Shown here piece after piece: positions 14,963 to 31,450 of a stretch of 39,440 nucleotides of DNA. A model generated the notes under the pieces. It did not search any database. It was not told the origin of the DNA and saw only the letters and a list, made by a program, of their open reading frames with translations. Source of the stretch: Parvularia atlantis. Lineage: Eukaryota. A program made the translations under genes and the position numbers. Where the stretch lies: contig CALSCO010001525.1 in assembly GCA_943704415.1 (NCBI GenBank), positions 1 to 39,440 of the forward strand. The letters are read 5' to 3'. Within the stretch, counting starts at the first letter, position 1, and every line of letters starts with the position of its first letter.

Positions 14963-17900
14963 TCAGCCGAGCAGGATCACGAGCTCCTTCGTGTGCTGCG
15001 CGATCGTGAACGCGAGGCCAGCCACGCCCTGGCTCTCGGGCCGCAGACCCTGTTGCACGGCCACGGTCAGCGCGCGTGGCCTCGCGACGCAGGCCCCGAG
15101 CACGCACGTCGCGGTCGACGTTCTGGCGGATCTCGAGCATTGACGCGATGACGGTCGCGAGCGACTGCAGGATCGCGTCGACGCGCGGGAGCACCTCAGG
15201 CGCGGGCGCCTGGCCGGGCGTGGTGAGGCTGTGCGAAATGACGTTCTTGAACCGGGTGATGGCGACGACGACCGAGTCGAGCGCCGTGATAAAGTCGCTG
15301 TCGGAGCGGGCCGTCTGGCACGCGCGCGCGGGTCAGCGGCGCATGCCATCGCCAGGGCCACCGCGCGCACCTTGAGCACGAGCAGCAGCGTCTGGATCGC
15401 CTGCACGATGACGTTGGTCTGCTGGTCCAGGAACGCCTTAAGGTCCTCGACCTGGCAGCGCGCGTCAGCACCTCGCCATTGCCATCGCATGCCGGCGCGC
15501 ACGAACCGCAAACTCGCTGCGCGCGGTCGACACGCCCGCATTGAGCTGCGACAGCAGCTTCATGACGACTTGCGAGAGCGCGGTCGACAGCGTCTCCATC
15601 TGGATCACCGACTCCTCCGTGAGGTGGCCGCCCGAGGCTTGCCCCTTGGCCAGCACGACGAGCTGCGTGAGCTTGTCCGAAATCTCGTTCTGCAGGCTGT
15701 TGAGCTTCTCGATCTGCTGCGGCTTGAGCTCGCCCTTGTGCTGGCGCTCAAACTCCTCCGCGTCGTCGAGGTGCTTGCGCACGGTCATCACTGCGCACGC
15801 ACGGTCAGACCACGCATCGCGAGTGCGCACGCACACGCGCCGCACCGATCGACTTCATTGCCAGGAGGATGTCGGCCGGCACCTGGCGCTGCACCGCGCC
15901 AAACAGCTCCTGGATGCCGTTGACGAGGTCCTTGATGGCCATGCCGTCGTCAAACACCATTTCCTGTTGCGCACGGAATGAGCACCGCGCAAGACACAGT
16001 GCAGCGCGGCGCACCTCGGTCACCGAGACCATGAAGCTCGTGTTGGTCGACTGGCGCGGGAGCGTGGCGACGCCGGCCATGCCCGCGCGCGACATTGTGC
16101 TCTGCACCATTGACGCGCGCGCGCTCGCCTTTGGCAGCGCGTGAGGTCACAGGCAGCGGTCGGCACGCGTGCGTGCGCACCTTGAGCGACGACACCTGCT
16201 CCTTGAGCGCGCGGACCTCCTCCTTTAGCGCCATGTTCTCGACCTGGATCTCGTTGCGCTCCATCTCGACGTTGTTCTTCTCGTCCAGTAGCGCGCGGGC
16301 CTCACGCGACTTGGCCTCGACCGCGTTCTCGTGCTGCAGCAGCATCGCCGACAGCTCCTCGACGATGGCCTTGTGCTTGGCCGAGCTGGCCTCGATGTCG
16401 CCGAGCAGCGCCTTTTTCTCCGCGGTGAGCTGGCGGTGGGCTGTCAGCTGCTGCACACCAGCGCGCAAACGTCTGCCGGCGCACTTCGCTCAGGAAGTCC
16501 TGCGCGTCACTCAGCTGCGTGTTGAGCGAGCGGATGCGCTCTTCGTCCTGCCGGACGGTCAGCTCGAGCAGCGCGACCTGCTGCAGCAGCTTCTCGTTCG
16601 CGGCCATCTGGCTGCGCAGCGCCTCTTCCGACTGCGGCCCCGTGAGCCTTGCCGCGCGGGACAACCACGCGCGCACCTTGTACTGCTCGGCCTCGTTTTG
16701 CCGCACCATGCGCAGCTCCTGCTCCAGGTTGGAGATCTGGCGCTCGTACACGGCGACCTTGCTGCTAAACTCGCTCTCGAGCGCGACGATCTTCTGCGCG
16801 TGCTTGGCCTGGGCCCGCGCGGCGGCGGCGGTGAGTGCGCGGCTGGTGATCGCGCGTACGCGTCGTGCCGGGCGCACGTTGAGCTGCGTCATCTCGGTCT
16901 GGTGCACCAGGCGCACGTTCTGGATCAGCTCCTCCGTGTGCACGGACGACTGCGCGGCCTCGACGAGGACCGACGCGGCCGAGCCGCGCTTCAGGTCAGG
17001 CACGGGCGAGGGCGGCACGGCCAGCCCGGCGGGCTTGGGCGGGAGGACGAGCGTGCGGTCGGGCGAGGCCGTCAACGGCGGCTGGATGAGTGTGTGCGTG
17101 CGCGAGCCGGCGGGCGAGATCATCGTGCCGAGGTCGGCCATGAGGTTGTCAAGTGAGTCAAAGTTGAGCGTGCTGTACTCGGTGTCAACCTCGGTCGCGG
17201 CGGTTGCTGTGGCGCGAGCACGCGTCACACGGCCATGTCGTGCAGCATGCCGCACAGCCGCCCGCACCGCTCTTGTCGCCCAACGGCCGTGGCGGCGCCG
17301 GCATGGTGACGTTGGATCCGCGCGTCTTGCTGCGTTGCGGGCGCGTGTCAAGGCAGCGCAAGCGCGCGTTAGGGCAGAGTGCGCGCACGTCAGCGCCTGC
17401 GCGACGATCGGCGCAGGCGGTGCGGGCGTGCGCTCCGGGTGCGCGGCCGCACGCGCGGCGCCTGCGCCGGCCGGGTGCGGGGGCAGCACGGCCACGCCGC
17501 CTGGAGGCGGCTGGAACGCGGCCGGCGGGCTGGACGAGAGCGCGGGTACGGGTACGGGGGCGACTGCGGCTGCGTGTGCGGGTGCGGCTGCGAGCGTGCC
17601 CTCGACGGCTGCGCGCGCGGCCGGGAAGCGGCGGCCGATCTCGACGTAGACGTCGCAGGCGAGCTCCTTGTACCTGTCGGGCGCGTCAGGCCGCAGGGTG
17701 CGCGCCGCACACGGACGCGCCTGTCATCCGGCAGCGTCGCGAGCTTCTGCCGCGCCTGGTTGCGCTTCGGGTGGAACAGGTCCTGCACGGGCAGGAACGG
17801 CATCGCCTCGCCGCCCTGGGCCGCCGCGCGCATGAGACGGCGCACGCTCGCGGCGCACGCACGCGCACCCGCAGCGCCACACGGCGTTTGAGCTCGTCAA

Positions 17901-18162
17901 ACACGTCCGTCGCGAGCTCGTTGAACTGCTGCTTGGACAGCTTCGTGAGCTTGTCGCTGCGGTGCGGTGCGGCGCGGCGCGGCGCGTGTTTGGCGTGCGT
18001 GCGATCGCGAACGCCGCGCGGGCGGCTGCCGCACCGCGCGAGCAGGCGCGCGTCGCCGACGCCCTTCTGCTTGACCTCGTCCAGGTACGCCGCGAGGTAC
18101 GCGTGCAGCTCGCGCAGCTGCGCCTCGGCCGCATCGTCCTCGCGCGAGCGCTTCGACGCCAT
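14963..18162 (-). CDS. SPA2: Spa2-type polarity scaffold (two Spa2-homology repeats, coiled coil, GIT/Spa2 C-terminal helical domain); no ArfGAP or ankyrin domain
   Basis: DKLTKLSKQQFNELATDVFDELKRR and PFLPVQDLFHPKRNQARQKLATLPDDR|YKELACDVYVEIGRRFP; C-terminus EDLKAFLDQQTNVIVQAIQTLL..AGLAFTIAQHTKELV. Confidence 0.85.
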
Positions 18163-18187
18163 CCGGGAGAGGAGGAAGAAGAAAGGG

Positions 18188-21752: not shown

Positions 21753-21834
21753 GAAACAGCGCCGGCTGCTGGCTGCGCCCTCCCCACTGCTACGTACGTA
21801 GGCCTATCAAGAAGTGCCGCAATAATAAAAGCAA

Positions 21835-23354
21835 TTATCGTCGCACTGAGCTCGCCGTCGACGCCGTTCGCGTGACCTGTCGGCAGCGGGCATGAGCGCG
21901 CGCCCGGCCAGCCAGCCGCACGCACCCGTGGCAGCATCGCCGACGGCACGATGCCGCCGTCCCCGTTGATGCTCGCCTCGAAGCTGGTCGACAGCGGCGC
22001 GGTCGTCAGCAGGCTCTCGTACCTGCGCGTGGACGGCATCGGCCGCGGAGCAGGCACGGGGCGCGACGCGGGCGCTTGTGCGGGCGCCTGGGCGGGCGTG
22101 GCCGGCACGGAGAGGTCGTCGTCCGCCCCGTCCTCGCCCACAAAGGGCGTGCAGGCCGAGAGGAAGGCGTCGGTCGACGTGTGCGGGTACGACGCCTGGT
22201 GGTGCGACGCCATGCACAGCAGCCGCCGCCACAGGTCGACGTAGTTGTGCCTGAACGTGCGCGAAAGCGCCATGAACGCCTGGCGCGGGCGTGAGCGGCG
22301 CACACGAGAGAGCGAGCGAGTAAACGCGCGCGCACGACAAAGTTCAGGAAGCCCTGCAACGGGGCGAAAAAGGCAAAGATGATCGCGAGCGGGAAGGTCG
22401 TCTCGGGGTCCATCGTCACGTCGGCAAAGTCGCGCACGAGCGCGAGTACGGCGAGCACCTGCGCACGCTGGTGAGCCGCACCAAGCGCGTGCCGCGCCGG
22501 TATGTCGAGAGCGCACCAGGCTCCAGAACCAGCATAGGATGAACGAGACGACGATGCTCACGAAGATCCGCCGCCGGTCCTCCGAGATGCCGGAGAAGCG
22601 TGGCGTCAGCTTGGAGTAGTTTGCGAGCTTGCGGAACTCGCTGGCGCGCACGTCAAGCAGGAGGCACGCACAAAGGCGCGCCGCACCGGCGCAGCAGCAC
22701 GAGCAGCAGCACGTTGGTGCACCACGAGAAGAAGATCCAGCCGTCGAAGAAGACGATGCGCGCCCACGACGCCGTGAACCAGCACCCGACCTCGTGCTCG
22801 ATCACCGTCTCCGAGTACAGCCCGAGCCCGATCGGCACAGCCACGCACACGGCCGGGACGAGCGTGCACACGGCGAGGTAGCCGAGCTCGTACACGCGGC
22901 CGCGCGCCTCGTTCCGCCGCACCTCCTGCAGCATCGCGAGCCCGCTGGCCGCGCACGCGCGCACGTCAGATCACGGCGCGGGCGTTGTTGGCACGACGCA
23001 CATGCAGCAAGACCAGAAGAACGTGGAGACGTAGAAGAACGTCTGGGTGGCGCGCGGCGTGAGCGCATCGCAGCGGCGCCGCACCGCGCGCACCGAGAGC
23101 ACCGCGCCCGACACGCACAGCGGCACGGACGGGTCCGGCACGTTGGTGAACCATGCTGCCGAGCCGCCGAGCATGAACAGGCTCATGTACGTGACCAGTT
23201 TGAGGAAGAACGAGCGGTCACCGGGTACGAGCGCGTAGTACGCGATAAGGCTGAGCTCGCCCGCGATCGACAGGCTCGCCGACGTCCACATGAGCGGCAG
23301 GTACACGCTCGCGTACAGCGTCCAGCCGTCGTTTTCGGCGGACCCCCTTGCCAT
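21835..23354 (-). CDS. cAMP-receptor-like (CAR/GCR1/GPR157-type) G-protein-coupled receptor, multi-exon
   Basis: Seven hydrophobic segments: SASLSIAG, LKLVTYMSL, Cys before TM3 then FFYVSTFFWSCC, GCW in ECL2, FILCWFWS, PLQGFLNFV in TM7. Confidence 0.82.
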
Positions 23355-23488
23355 GCGACGGGTGTGGCGGCGATGAGCTGTGTCACAATGCTTTTCCCGG
23401 ACGAGCTGACGCGATCAGGAGGCCCGCGCGCCGGCCTCAAGAGGGCGGCCTGCGCCACGCGGCGCCGCACCGCGCACGTGCACGCACC

Positions 23489-24488
23489 ATGCTCTCGCTC
23501 AAGTGCGTGTTTGTCGGCGACGTGGGCGCGGGCAAGACGAGCCTGACCATGGTGCTGGTGCGGCGCCCCACAACACGCCCGGCGGCTGAAACCGCCGTCT
23601 CACGCGCGCGACGTGCAGAACGGCGCCCCGTTCGACCCGAACGCGTTCGTGCCCACCGTCGCGGACAACTGGGCGGTGATGCGCATGCACCGCGGCGTGC
23701 CCGCGCAGCTCGGGCTGTGGGACGTGAACGCCCGCGAGGAGTACGACCGCCTGCGCCCGCTCTCGTACCCGCAGACGGACGTGTTTGCGCTCTGCTTCGA
23801 CGTCACGCGGCCACACGCGCTGCAGCAGATCCGCGACAAGTGGCACCACGAGGTGCAGCACCACTGCCCGGGTGTGCCCGTCGTCCTCGTCGGCACCAAG
23901 AGCGACCTGCTCGAGTCTCAGGCCGACGCCGACGCCCTCGCCAGCGGCGCAGAGCGCGACCGAACGTGGGCCCTCGCTGCGGCCTGGCGCGAGCGCCAGC
24001 GCGAGATCGGCCGCCAGCACCTGCTGTGGCGCGTGCGCCACGTCTGGCCGCTGCTGCGCCACGTCAGCCCGCGCGTCCCGCCCAAGGACGGCCAGTGCCG
24101 CCTCGACGGCCTGTGCGACGAGCTCGTCCTGCACATCCTTGGCTATCTCGACACGCCCGACCTCGGCCGCGTGGCGCGCGTCAACCGGCGGCTGCGCGAG
24201 CTCGCCGGCGACCGCGCGCTTTGGCCCGCGTGGCGCTACAAGCGCGGGCAGGTCGCCGGGCGGATCAGCGAGATTACGCCGTACACCGTGCAGGAGGTCG
24301 CGCGGAAGATCGGCGCGCGCGCGACGGTCATCACCAGCGCGACGGAGCCGGCGCTGGTTGTCGAGACGCTCTCGACGGCGCTGCTCGACGCGACCATGGA
24401 CCACTCGCCGTCGATCCACCGCCTCACGCTGCAGAACAAGCGCGGCCCGCGGCTCGTGCGGCGTGTGCGACGTGCGCTGCGCCTGTGA
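23489..24488 (+). CDS. Atypical Rho/Rac-family GTPase with an internal F-box domain (312 aa, one intron 23558-23618)
   Basis: MLSLKCVFVGDVGAGKTSL; VPTVADN; LGLWDVNAREEYDRLRPLSYPQTDVFALCF; KWHHEVQHHCPGVPVVLVGTKSDL; F-box LDGLCDELVLHILGYLDTPDLGRVARVNRRLRELAGDRALW (24102-24224); the GTPase fold then resumes ITPYTVQEVARKIGARATVITSA. Confidence 0.88.
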
Positions 24489-26702: not shown

Positions 26703-29447
26703 ATGCGGGCGCTGGCCATCATGGCCGCGTGCTGTGTCGCGGCGGCCGCAACGCCGCCGCCGCACCAGCAGCACCACCAGCCGCCCGCGCCGCCACTGCA
26801 GCCGCTGCGCCGCGTGACCGTGCCCGTGCGGCTCAACGTCGTGCTCGTGGGCTTCGAGAGCGCGCTCGCGGACCAGGCGCTGCTCGCGCCGTACCTCGAG
26901 GACGTCGAGACGCGCCTGCCGCACGCCTTTGTCGACGGCGGGGCGTCGGACGCGGTCGAGTACGCCTACGCGGTGCACGTGGTGCCACTCAGCCACACCG
27001 TCACGAAGCTGTTCGAGGCCGTCATCTCGACCTTTGTGCGCGCCGACAACGCGACGGCGTCGGGCGCGCATTACCAGGTCGACGTCGACCGCATCCTGCC
27101 CGTGGCCGAGTCGCTCGTGCACCGCCTGGGCCTGCACGACGCCTACACGCTCCTGCTCCTCAACTGCCCCAAGGGCCTGCGCGCCGACCTGCGCTACGGC
27201 TACCGCGCGGGCTTCTCGGCCGACGAGCTGCGACAGATCGCGACTTCGGACGACCTGCGCAAGATTGTGCTGCAGATCAACACCGCCGCCGACAAGAACC
27301 GGCCCGGCGGCCCGGGCGGCCCGGGCGACGCCGGCGGCATGCCTGCGCACGACGAGGACGCCGAGGCCGCCCTGCCCGACGAGGCGTCGCGTCCGCTCCC
27401 GCGCGGACCCGGCGTCGTGTTTGAGGACATGGTGGCGCAGGCCGACGCGTGGGCGCGCGCGTTCCTCGCCGAGACGCGCCAGCTGCTCGCGCGCCAGGAT
27501 GCGCCCGGAAACGTGCCCGCGGAGGACTGCGCGCGGCCGATGACGGTGCTGCTGCAGGACCCGGACGGCGACCACAGCCATGCCGTCAACATGAAGCCCG
27601 CGCTCACGCTGGCCGAGGCCGCCGAGGCCGCCATCGCCGTCGGCCATCCGAGCGACGCCGCGGCGCTGCGCCTGGCCGCGCAGGGCGGCGTGGTGCACGC
27701 GGGCTGCGTCGTCGGCAGCTGGGTCGGCCACGGCCGAACGGCGTTCATCGACCTGGCCGCGGGCCCGTTCTCGTGGGGCACGACGGCCACGGGCAAGGGC
27801 GCGCTCGTCGACACGGCCGCGGTGTACCCGGGCGCGCGCGACACGGTGGCGCAGGCGACGCGGCGGTACCGGACGCGCGCGCTGCTGCAGGCCGGCGACA
27901 CGGACGACGACACGTTTGACGACGGCGGAGCGAGCGCGGACGCGGGGCGCAGCCGCAGCATCGACGCCGAGCTGCGCATCTACGAGGCCTTCCTCGCGCG
28001 CAATTGCGATCCTGAGAACCTGCCGCAGGGCGAGGCGGGGCAGCGGCTGACGCGCGCGTGCGAGGAGACGCGCGTGCGCATGGCGCGGCTCGAGGCGCGC
28101 CGGGCCGAGCGGCCAGTGGCGCCAGGGGGCGGGCTGCTGTCGGACGTGGTCGAGGAGGAGGAGGCGCCGGCGGGTGCAGCGGACGCGGACGCGCCCGAGC
28201 GGTATCCGCCGGCGGCGTACGAGGAGTTTGGCGCGCGGCTGGGCAGCGTCATCTCGCGCACGCTGCGCACGCTCGTGACGCCCCCGACGGCGCGGTCGTC
28301 GCTGGACCTGCGCGGCCTGGCCAAGCGCGTGTCGTTCCGGGTCGTGGTCGTGACCAACCACCACAAGGCGTACCGGCACCTGGGCGCGGCCGCGGGCGGA
28401 TTTGACTATGACCTGTTCCGGACGGAGATGGACAAGCTCTGCCTGCCGGGCCACGCGTTTGCGTACACGCTGCAGGAGGTCGCGCTGACGGACGAGTCGC
28501 GGCTGGCGATGGTCTACTGGGACGCGCTGCACACGGCCGTCACTGGCGCAGGCGGGCAGGGCACGCGGATGTACCTCGACTCGGAGCACTTGCACCGGCA
28601 GCTCCTGGGCGACGACGGCGTGACTGAGGCCTCGGTCACGCCCGACGGGCTCCTGTCGCGCGTGCTCGTGTTCATCTTCGTGGTCGACTACGAGTTGCCG
28701 GTGCTGATCGACCTGTACCAGCAGGCGGCCGTGATCGACAACGCCGTCGTGGCCGTGCAGCACGGCCTGCAGACGTTCCGCACGCGCGACCAGTGCAACG
28801 GCCAGCCCGTCGCCGTTAGCCTGCGCAACCCGACCAAGGCCGTCATCGCCGCCGCGGCCGAGATCGTCGGCGGGCTCGCGGCCCCGCGCGACCGCCTGTG
28901 GTCGGTCGGCGCCGCGCCACTGCAGGCCACGTCGCCACGCGCGCGGCACGGCGCGTTTGACGTCGACACGGCGCACCGGCACTGGCTCACCGTGCGCATG
29001 GACCGGATCAAAGGCGCGCTCGACACGGTGCTGGCGCGGCTGCGCGGCGAGACGTCGGTGCACGTGGCGCGCGAGGTGGAGACGCTGCGTGCGACGTACA
29101 GCGAGGTTGTGCGGGTGCTCGAGGCCGTGGGCGACCACGCGGCGCTGATGGACTATCGGACCGTGTTCCGCCTGCTGTCGACGGCCGAGGACGACGTGCG
29201 GGTGCTGTTCAACGTGACGGCGGCGATGGGCGCGGTGCAGCACGAGGCGCACTGCCGGCACGAGGTCGACCCGGACGAGCAGGCCGCGCAGACCGTGCGC
29301 CTGCTCACGACCATCCTCACGCTCGGGCTCGTCAACGCCGTGCTGCTGCTCGTCTACTACCTGTGCACGTACGCGGGCCCGCTCCCGGCCGCCGTGCGCG
29401 CGACGATGCCCGAGGTGCTGCGGCCGAGCAAGGTGAAGATCAACTGA
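26703..29447 (+). CDS. Intronless 914-aa type I membrane protein of an uncharacterised eukaryotic family (resembles Arabidopsis At4g16180/At5g58100-type proteins)
   Basis: Signal peptide; [56 protein letters not shown]-terminal TM helix; ends RPSKVKIN* (KxKxx). Family call is from memory of the motifs. Confidence 0.7.
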
Positions 29448-29777: not shown

Positions 29778-31304
29778 CTAGAACACAGTGCCGAGCGCGT
29801 CAAACCATGCCGTGACGGTCGGGTCGACCAGGGCGACGCGGCGGAAGGCGTCGAATGAGATGCGCCCCGTGCCGTCCGGGTCGGCCGCGCGGAAGGCTGC
29901 CGCCGCGCGTGCAGGTCAGCGGCGAGCGAGCTGCAAACGCGAGCAACAAAAAAACGCACTGCGCTGCACGAGCTCGCCGATGGCCTCGTCCGACAGGGCC
30001 TCGATTACGGGCTGGATCTGCTGCGGCGTCGGCCAGCGCAGGCTCGCACCGCCCGCGCTCGACGTGTCGCTCCCGCTGGCGCCGCTGCTCCCGCCACCGC
30101 TGCTCCCGCTGCTCGCGGCCGGCGAGGGCGGTGCGGGCGGCGTGCTCTTGCTCCGCCCGTCCTCGGCCGGGATGGCCGCCGAGAACGCGGCCGAGACGGG
30201 CTTGTCGCCCTCGGGGTTGTAGCGCTGTACCATGTCGTCCTGCAGCGCCCGGGCTACGTCGCGGATGAGCTCGAGCGAGAGCTGGAAGTACGCGCGGAAC
30301 ATCTTCTCGAGGTCGCCCGCGCTGATGAAGCCGTCGCCGTCGAGGTCGTAGCCCTTGAAGATGTCTGCGCGCGCGCGCGCGCGCGCACGCGCCTGCTCAG
30401 CCCCGCGTGCCCGTTCGCCCCCGCACGAGCCGCACGTACACGTCATCTTTTCGTCCTGCGAGCCCTTGCACAGGATCGACAGGCCGCACACCAGCTCGGA
30501 GAAGTTGATCAGGCCGTCGCCGTCCTGGTCAAAGAAGCTGAAGATGCGCTCGGTGATCAGGTTGCGCTCGAGCCCGAGCGGTCCCAGGCACTGCTCAAAG
30601 ACGCGCCAGCTGATGCCTGCGCCGCCGGGCGCGTTCGGGTCGCACAGGGCGCGGAACTGGTCATGCAGGGCCTCGAGCTCGACGTGGTCAAAGTGCGTGC
30701 GCCGCTGCAGCTCGCGCAGGTCGTCCCAGCTGAGCGCGGCGTCGTTCGGCGAGCGGCCCGCGCCCGGGTAGAGCACAGGCGCGAGCGGCGTGCGCGGGTT
30801 GGCGAGGGGCGGGACGGGCACGCGGATCTTGACGAAGACGTGCGTGCGCGGCACGTGCGGCTCGGCGGCCTCGCACGCCTCGCACAGGTCGTAGTCGACG
30901 CAGTTGGCGCACTTGTACCGCACGCCACGCAGGGGCGACGTGTTGCAGTGGTTGCAGGTCACGCCCCGGTGCACGTAGCCCTCGCGCCGCGCCTGGTCCT
31001 CCGCGATCGAGTACAGCAGGTTGAGCAGGTGCTGGCTCTCCTTGCCCCTGCCCGCGGGCGGCGGCGCCGGCAGGCTCGCGGTCGCCAGGGCCGGCGCCGA
31101 CGCCGACGCCTCTTGGTCGGCCGAAGCCGAGCGCGCCGCGCCGCCGTCGCGGTGCCGCCTGCTCCGTCTGCGGCTGGGTGCCGCGAGCCCCGCGGCCTGC
31201 GCGGCCGCCGTGAGCGCGTGCTGCTGGTACAGGGTGGCCGAGAGTGACGCCACGGCCACGGCGACGCCGGCGAACGCGAGCGTCACCCAACCCTGGTCGC
31301 TCAT
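29778..31304 (-). CDS. N-terminally anchored ZZ zinc finger + EF-hand (frequenin/CBL-like) protein, 3 exons
   Basis: TM WVTLAFAGVAVAVASL; LLNLLYSIAEDQARREGYVHRGVTCNHC..RYKCANCVDYDLCEAC..THVFVKIRVP; EF hands FDQDGDGLINFSE, YDLDGDGFISAGD, ADPDGTGRISFDA. Confidence 0.9.
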
Positions 31305-31450
31305 CCGCGCCTTGGGTAATCCTGCGGCTGCACCTCTGGTGCAACACACCGCCGGCGTGGCGTGGCGCCGTGTCAGTCGTCGAGCGAGCGGGCGATTGGG
31401 CACGCTCATCACCCGCCGCCGACCAAGCTCACAAAGACACACAGCTTTTT

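What the first reader, a model, noticed from the sequence alone, without database searches (positions are those of the whole stretch)
23489..24488. Rho GTPase with an F-box inserted in the Rho-insert loop: candidate SCF-linked 'RhoFBX'
Seen: an approximately 120-residue segment between the G4 motif (TKSDL, about 23895-23909) and the resumed Rho C-terminal elements (ITPYTVQEVARKIGA..TSA, equivalent to Rac1 ITYPQGLAMAKEIGA..CSA). It contains a clear F-box (24102-24224) in frame in one exon, with no splice signals around it. Established: the Rho insert helix is a surface loop about 13 aa long, F-boxes bind Skp1/Cul1, and RhoBTB proteins link a Rho domain to Cul3 through appended BTB domains. Inference: this is a Cul1/SCF substrate receptor whose recognition module is the Rho domain itself, potentially sending Rho effectors, GEFs or GAPs for ubiquitination. 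I do not know of a described Rho with an F-box nested inside the G-domain.
Basis: partly seen in the sequence, partly recalled or inferred. Interest (0 to 1): 0.88.

Follow-up and report, generated by a model that had tools for sequence, protein, structure and literature searches.

The report
Rho GTPase with built-in F-box
A protist gene encodes a Rac-type signalling GTPase whose fold is interrupted by an F-box, and relatives in other unnamed eukaryotes share the design; it likely recruits a protein-destruction machine (Skp1-Cul1) to Rac-pathway partners.

Summary
Confirmed and extended. The two-exon gene (23489-24488, 312 aa) encodes a Rac-like G domain broken after G4 by an insert of about 110 aa. 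The insert holds a conserved helical arm and an F-box (Pfam 41 bits, cut-off 24.3). Contigs of one spliced, RNA-like run keep the insert unspliced. It belongs to a small unnamed family: five Ras+F-box clusters, two fragments and an intron-rich locus at 28% GC, 33-38% identical to the window protein. In the family the last strand, G5 and last helix resume after the F-box (HHalign E 3e-8), and a homologue's model rebuilds a whole Rho fold (Z 18). A Skp1 co-fold passes (0.79 against 0.00 for controls), but F-box-Skp1 is a textbook pair. The window copy is degenerate: G12V-, G60A- and Q61R-like changes, F-box Pro to Cys, no CAAX, basic tail. Best reading: an SCF adaptor that uses the Rho surface to recognise substrates, a Cul1 counterpart of RhoBTB-Cul3. 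Substrates, Cul1 binding and nucleotide binding are untested. Nine literature searches of the held open-access library found no description.

The parts
23489..23557 (+). Exon 1: beta1, P-loop GDVGAGKT (23516-23539; Val at the Rac G12 position), start of alpha1
   Evidence: RNA-like contig 23398-23556 joined to 23618
23558..23618 (+). Intron, 61 nt, GTGCGG..CTCAC..GCAG, phase 0
   Evidence: spliced in run X2; boundaries
23619..23909 (+). Rac-like G-domain N-half: switch I FVPTVADNW, G3 DVNAREE (23721-23741; G60A- and Q61R-like), switch II EYDRLRPLSY, G4 TKSD (23895-23906)
   Evidence: Pfam Ras E 3e-17; best PDB hits Rac1, E 1.5e-33; motif comparison
23910..23960 (+). Remnant of the Rho insert (predicted helix 23919-23942)
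   Evidence: Rho HMM alignment runs to exon-2 residue 114; helix 101-108 in a low-confidence model
23961..24104 (+). Family-specific helical arm and P..K.G.C loop ahead of the F-box
   Evidence: profile from 5 homologues scores the window segment 53 bits, 0 of 1000 shuffles as high; hits only family members among 280 proteins held
24105..24224 (+). F-box (LCDE..YLDTPD..DRALW); Cys replaces the conserved Pro
   Evidence: Pfam above cut-off; best PDB hit is the Skp2 F-box, E 0.0012; predicted Skp1 interface at exon-2 residues 158-193
24225..24269 (+). Linker back to the G domain
   Evidence: pLDDT about 28 in the model
24270..24401 (+). Resumed G-domain C-half: alpha4 (VQEVARKIG), beta6, G5-like TSA (24333-24341), alpha5
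   Evidence: family against Rho C-half, HHalign probability 95%, E 3e-8; window model aligns 8..261 to Rac1 30..178, Z 15.3; weak in the window sequence alone; RNA cover ends at 24334
24402..24488 (+). Basic amphipathic tail (net +8 in last 18 aa), no CAAX, stop TGA

Best explanation
The gene encodes a Rac-derived G domain with an F-box inserted between G4 and alpha4, and the protein likely acts as an SCF (Skp1-Cul1) adaptor whose Rho surface would capture Rac-pathway partners for ubiquitination. Shown: the nested architecture, the exonic insert, conservation in a small eukaryotic family, no CAAX and a basic tail. Predicted: the two G-domain halves refold around the insert, and the F-box docks Skp1. 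Inferred: switch I/II stay exposed and bind a GEF, GAP or effector; the G domain plays the part that WD40 or LRR domains play in other F-box proteins; the basic tail replaces prenylation for membrane targeting. Family members with G12 and Q61 intact could make substrate capture nucleotide-switched. The window copy is likely hydrolysis-dead and may bind Cul1 weakly.
For: F-box above Pfam cut-off in the window protein and in 5 clusters that also carry Ras. F-box Pro kept in 8 of 8 homologous F-boxes. Family at 33-38% identity to the window protein keeps arm, F-box and resumed CSA/CSS, in DNA of 28%, 51% and 70% GC. Post-F-box segments beat all 1000 shuffles against a Rho C-half profile in 4 of 6 homologues, 2 of 1000 in a fifth. 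The P0128 model has core blocks at pLDDT 83-89, including residues 241-250 after the F-box, and aligns over 1..276 to whole RhoA, Cdc42 and Rac1 (Z 18.5, rmsd 3.2, 158 aligned). Skp1 co-fold scores 0.79, best of 3 controls 0.00; the mark was reached by 51 of 78 solved complexes and 2 of 108 mismatches; contact agreement at least 60%, partner pLDDT at least 81; interface on F-box residues 158-193. G3/switch II is the best kept stretch (12-16 of 17 identical to Rac). Precedent: RhoBTB-Cul3 (PMC4931677, passages).
Against: No substrate, Cul1 binding or nucleotide binding was tested. The Skp1 pass can come from likeness to solved F-box-Skp1 complexes, used a stand-in Skp1 from a viral-collection contig, and the Rho chain's pLDDT was 52-54. 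The window F-box has Cys for the Pro whose loss markedly cuts Cul1 binding of Skp2 and Fbxo4 (PMC3237615, passages). The window model is poor (pLDDT 50.6, F-box under 50) and lacks exon 1. In RhoBTB the reported substrates bind mostly outside the GTPase domain, so Rho-as-receptor is not the rule even in the precedent. One homologue (P0129) and the window's post-F-box part are not significant alone. Switch I drifts in the window copy (6 of 12 identical).
Confidence: 0.5

Rival explanations
1. Self-destruct timer: the F-box mainly recruits SCF to ubiquitinate the GTPase itself, so a Rho that cannot switch off by hydrolysis is controlled by its abundance.
For: Q61 is lost in 3 of 6 sequences with a readable G3 (window R, P0124 H, P0145 L). 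RhoBTBs are substrates of their own ligase; SconB stability depends on its F-box Pro (PMC5029927, passages).
Against: 3 of 6 keep Q61; two of these also keep G12 and the third's P-loop start is not readable. A conserved arm of about 45 aa suggests a defined geometry beyond a degron. The window copy, the most hydrolysis-dead, is the one lacking the Pro.
Confidence: 0.2
2. Cullin-independent Skp1 complex: the protein binds Skp1 as a membrane-associated scaffold or decoy for Rac regulators, without ubiquitination (as recalled for yeast Rcy1-Skp1; not checked here).
For: Pro to Cys in the window F-box while the Skp1-facing residues still dock; basic tail; G12V/G60A/Q61R-like changes fit a fixed-state scaffold.
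Against: 8 of 8 homologous F-boxes keep the Cul1-contacting Pro, so this could hold for the window copy only.
Confidence: 0.2
3. The window copy is a decaying paralogue of a functional family.
For: Long branch (1.3) and not grouped with the 5 homologues on the G-domain N-half in a quick tree with no strongly supported branch; changes in G1, G3, G5 and the F-box Pro.
Against: Intact 312-aa frame, GC3 0.90-1.0 throughout, spliced transcript contigs, arm conserved at 53 bits.
Confidence: 0.08
4. Artefact: unspliced intron, mis-assembly or a chance chimera.
For: Donor-like site at 24033; only one RNA-like run, labelled a guess, with no cover of 24335-24488 in the listed pieces.
Against: An independent DNA contig spans 23756-25902; the RNA-like contig keeps the insert; homologues have the same order, including an intron-rich locus and an intronless mRNA-sized contig.
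Confidence: 0.02

Closest known systems
RhoBTB1/2 and Dictyostelium RacA (Cul3 adaptors)
   Same: Rac-stem G domain with deviant G12/G3, no CAAX, fused to a cullin-recruiting module (PMC4931677, PMC8305917, passages)
   Different: BTB domains are appended C-terminally and bind Cul3 directly; here an F-box sits inside the G domain and would reach Cul1 through Skp1; about 290-310 aa rather than 600-700
Canonical Rac1/Cdc42
   Same: N-half about 50% identical to Rac1 over 99 aa; whole fold recovered in models
   Different: insert of about 110 aa after G4; no CAAX; catalytic residues lost in the window copy
F-box proteins (Skp2, Fbxw7; 'F-box only' class)
   Same: F-box above Pfam cut-off, best PDB match Skp2, predicted Skp1 docking
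   Different: the F-box is internal to another domain; no LRR, WD40 or kelch domain
Kelch-F-box-Rho protein of Soliformovum irregulare (P0281, EukProt; Amoebozoa, Variosea)
   Same: Rho and F-box in one chain
   Different: F-box lies upstream of an intact Rho with CAAX and after a kelch propeller; lacks the family arm and TPD motif, so likely an independent fusion; I found no paper on it
Rab40 (SOCS box, Cul5); recalled, not checked
   Same: small GTPase joined to a cullin adaptor motif
   Different: Rab family, appended SOCS box, different cullin

Membership tests
Rho family (Rac stem) | Rac-like G-domain sequence | tested here: met
   Rac1 E 1.5e-33; family profile against Rac, probability 100%
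Rho family (Rac stem) | Complete G fold including beta6, G5 and alpha5 | tested here: met
   family HHalign E 3e-8; models Z 18.5 and 15.3; weak in the window sequence alone
Rho family (Rac stem) | Rho insert helix of 10-15 aa | tested here: inconclusive
   short helix predicted in the window model, not in the P0128 model; both low confidence there
Rho family (Rac stem) | CAAX box | tested here: not met
   absent in the window protein and 5 of 5 homologues checked; RhoBTB1/2 and RacA lack it too
Classical cycling Rho GTPase | G12, G60 and Q61 | tested here: not met
   window has V, A, R; Q61 kept in 3 of 5 homologues
Classical cycling Rho GTPase | GTP binding and hydrolysis | not testable with these tools
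   GKT, T35, D57 and TKSD are kept, so binding is plausible; needs an assay
F-box proteins / SCF receptors | F-box motif above curated cut-off | tested here: met
F-box proteins / SCF receptors | Skp1 binding | tested here: inconclusive
   model passes, 0.79 against 0.00, but it is a textbook pair with a stand-in Skp1
F-box proteins / SCF receptors | Cul1-contacting proline | tested here: not met
   Cys in the window copy; Pro in 8 of 8 homologous F-boxes
F-box proteins / SCF receptors | Cul1 assembly and substrate ubiquitination | not testable with these tools
   needs biochemistry
RhoBTB | Tandem BTB domains after the G domain | tested here: not met
   no BTB hit in Pfam; only about 30 aa follow the G domain

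The most novel reading that the evidence does not exclude
An undescribed protist family of GTPase-based SCF receptors: the F-box is built into the Rho fold, so that in members with an intact active site the GTP/GDP switch decides which Rac regulators or effectors are handed to Cul1, a nucleotide-gated ubiquitin ligase; the window copy is a switch-locked version.
Probability: 0.3. Interest if true: 0.88.

Novelty: new variant of a known kind. Interest (0 to 1): 0.7.

Why it matters
Small GTPases joined to cullin adaptors are known for Cul3 (RhoBTB) and, from recall, Cul5 (Rab40). This would be the Cul1 case, and it uses insertion inside the G domain rather than an appended domain. Some members keep the catalytic residues and others lose them, so the family is a natural test of whether a GTPase switch can gate substrate choice by a ubiquitin ligase, which is unsettled for RhoBTB. 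It also shows that the Rho-insert site tolerates a folded 110-aa module. A second, separate Rho-F-box fusion in an amoebozoan suggests repeated invention.

Tried and rejected
Word-index homologue searches missed the family: the whole protein gave 4159 hits, of which the 122 proteins listed carry no F-box annotation; region 92-289 gave 0 of 4813 candidates. Only the full HMMER scan found it. A family profile then added one fragment (4 hits among 6077), so the family looks rare, but its true size is unknown. No relative in viral contigs, prokaryote genomes (single-protein query, close relatives only) or GenBank phages; these scans are insensitive. L004 was a bacterial ABC-transporter false hit. 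I considered that the helix before the F-box is the true alpha4 (G4-to-TW spacing of 18 aa equals Rac's), which would put the insertion in the alpha4-beta6 loop: the pre-F-box profile has no match to the Rho C-half (probability 0.4%) and both models place alpha4 after the F-box, so it is disfavoured but not excluded (33 of 1000 shuffles for the window segment). The careful tree did not finish; the quick tree has no branch at 95 or more and is uninformative. The ESM Atlas was unavailable, and no whole genome is held, so paralogues and the host's own Skp1 could not be sought. The host lineage was not determined. No RNA cover of 24335-24488 in the listed pieces; this is not evidence of absence. 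Earlier scan findings: none returned.

Full report
Gene. The window is a 70% GC eukaryotic sequence with introns of 46-77 nt and GTGCG-type donors. The gene starts at 23489, has one 61-nt intron (23558-23618) and ends at 24488, giving 312 aa. Run X2 is labelled RNA by guess only, but it shows 13 joints with canonical intron ends in 4.5 kb where DNA run X1 shows none. One X2 contig spans the spliced junction (23398-23785) and a second continues 23756-24334 with no gap. So the insert is exonic. The last 154 nt are not covered by the listed pieces, and this is one run, as contigs.

Anatomy. Pfam finds Ras only up to G4 and an F-box above cut-off at 24105-24224. The N-half is closest to Rac1. A donor-like site at 24033 exists but is retained in the contig; by eye I saw no branch motif before the downstream AG sites.

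Family. A HMMER scan of 1.84 billion representatives with the segment from beta4 to the end gave 2964 hits, 150 listed. I scanned 36 of the 150 with Pfam, picked for long or multiple matched stretches: 5 have Ras followed by an F-box (P0123, P0124, P0128, P0129, P0145), 2 are F-box fragments with the same flank (P0252, P0259), 1 has an upstream F-box (P0250), and 28 have no F-box. The seven come from unnamed JGI, ENA or Logan records. They are 33-38% identical to the window protein and show arm, F-box with L[HND]TPD, then CSA or CSS and a helix. A metagenome scan gave 4 loci: L001 is P0124's intronless contig (51% GC), L002 and L003 are one intron-rich eukaryotic gene (27-28% GC) with the same order, and L004 is a false hit. 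An arm profile built from the 5 homologues hits 15 of 280 proteins held, all family; hits outside the training clusters are the window protein (48.8 bits), P0252 and P0259.

Nesting. The family's post-F-box profile matches the Rho C-half (probability 95%, E 3e-8) and the pre-F-box profile does not. AlphaFold2 with family-only alignments: P0128 has mean pLDDT 62, core blocks 83-89 on both sides of the insert and the insert at 35-57; it aligns over residues 1-276 to whole Rho structures (Z 18.5, rmsd 3.2 A, 158 aligned). The window's exon-2 model is poor (50.6) yet aligns 8-261 to Rac1 30-178 (Z 15.3, rmsd 3.2 A, 139 aligned), with alpha4, beta6 and alpha5 after the F-box.

Motifs. In Rac numbering the window copy has V12, A37, W40, V58, N59, A60 and R61; GKT, T35, D57, switch II DRLRPLSY and TKSD are kept. 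That G12, G60 and Q61 are needed for hydrolysis is established knowledge, recalled. Of 5 homologues 3 keep Q61. None of the six has CAAX; the last 18 residues carry net +5 to +8, against +4 and +6 in two Racs, so the basic tail is not unusual in charge, only in lacking the Cys. The F-box Pro is Cys in the window and Pro in 8 of 8 homologous F-boxes; this Pro contacts Cul1, and its loss markedly reduced Cul1 binding of Skp2 and Fbxo4 (PMC3237615, passages).

Skp1. With a complete Skp1 from a viral-collection contig (Pfam Skp1 and Skp1_POZ) as stand-in, the co-fold scored 0.79, best of 3 controls 0.00; the mark was reached by 51 of 78 solved complexes and 2 of 108 mismatches; contacts agree in at least 60%, partner pLDDT at least 81. 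The interface is the F-box (158-193). This shows likeness to solved F-box-Skp1 pairs and that the nested setting does not block docking in the model. It does not show binding.

Mechanism. Most likely an SCF adaptor whose G domain is the recognition module (0.5). Rivals: self-turnover timer (0.2), cullin-free Skp1 scaffold (0.2), decaying copy (0.08), artefact (0.02). The architecture is shown; folding and Skp1 docking are predicted; Cul1, substrates and membrane targeting are inferred.

Literature. Nine searches for a Rho-F-box protein listed none; I saw listings and abstract starts. 'F-box' occurs 0 times in the main text of PMC8305917 (amoebozoan Rho phylogeny), PMC7600811 and PMC4931677 (passages only). 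PMC5029927: passages. Schmidt et al. 2009 is known only through PMC3237615. Subscription papers, supplements and InterPro were not seen and could hold a mention.

Verdict. Real, expressed by one RNA-like run, conserved in a rare family, apparently undescribed: a new variant of the GTPase-cullin adaptor theme. Interest 0.7.

Noticed in passing
P0281/P0250 (EukProt, Soliformovum irregulare): Kelch propeller, F-box and intact Rac with CAAX in one 641-aa protein; G3 reads DTLDQ. A second, likely independent Rho-F-box fusion.
   Followed up: partly
window 21800-23354 (-): Head-to-head gene starting 135 bp upstream of the Rho ATG: 5 RNA-confirmed introns, about 429 aa, 6 hydrophobic segments by a simple scan, weak 7tm_2 hit (E 0.016); possibly a GPCR sharing a promoter.
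   Followed up: partly
window about 15100-18183 (-): Spa2/GIT-like polarity scaffold: GIT_SHD and C3G9 VBS-like domains.
   Followed up: no
L002 1753-2998 (+): Family member in a 28% GC genome with at least five introns, unrecognisable G3 and G5 TCNKSG; neighbours include an ankyrin protein, an ARM-TIR protein and a Ras-like gene.
   Followed up: partly
L005-L010: Six viral-collection contigs carry Skp1 homologues; four of 1.8-2.5 Mb break off at FNIK as if at an intron.
   Followed up: no
window 26703-29444 (+): Single-exon protein of about 914 aa with a signal-peptide-like start and DUF7906; not in the protein collection.
   Followed up: no
window 29961-31316 (-): ZZ zinc finger plus EF-hands with a hydrophobic N-terminus.
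   Followed up: no
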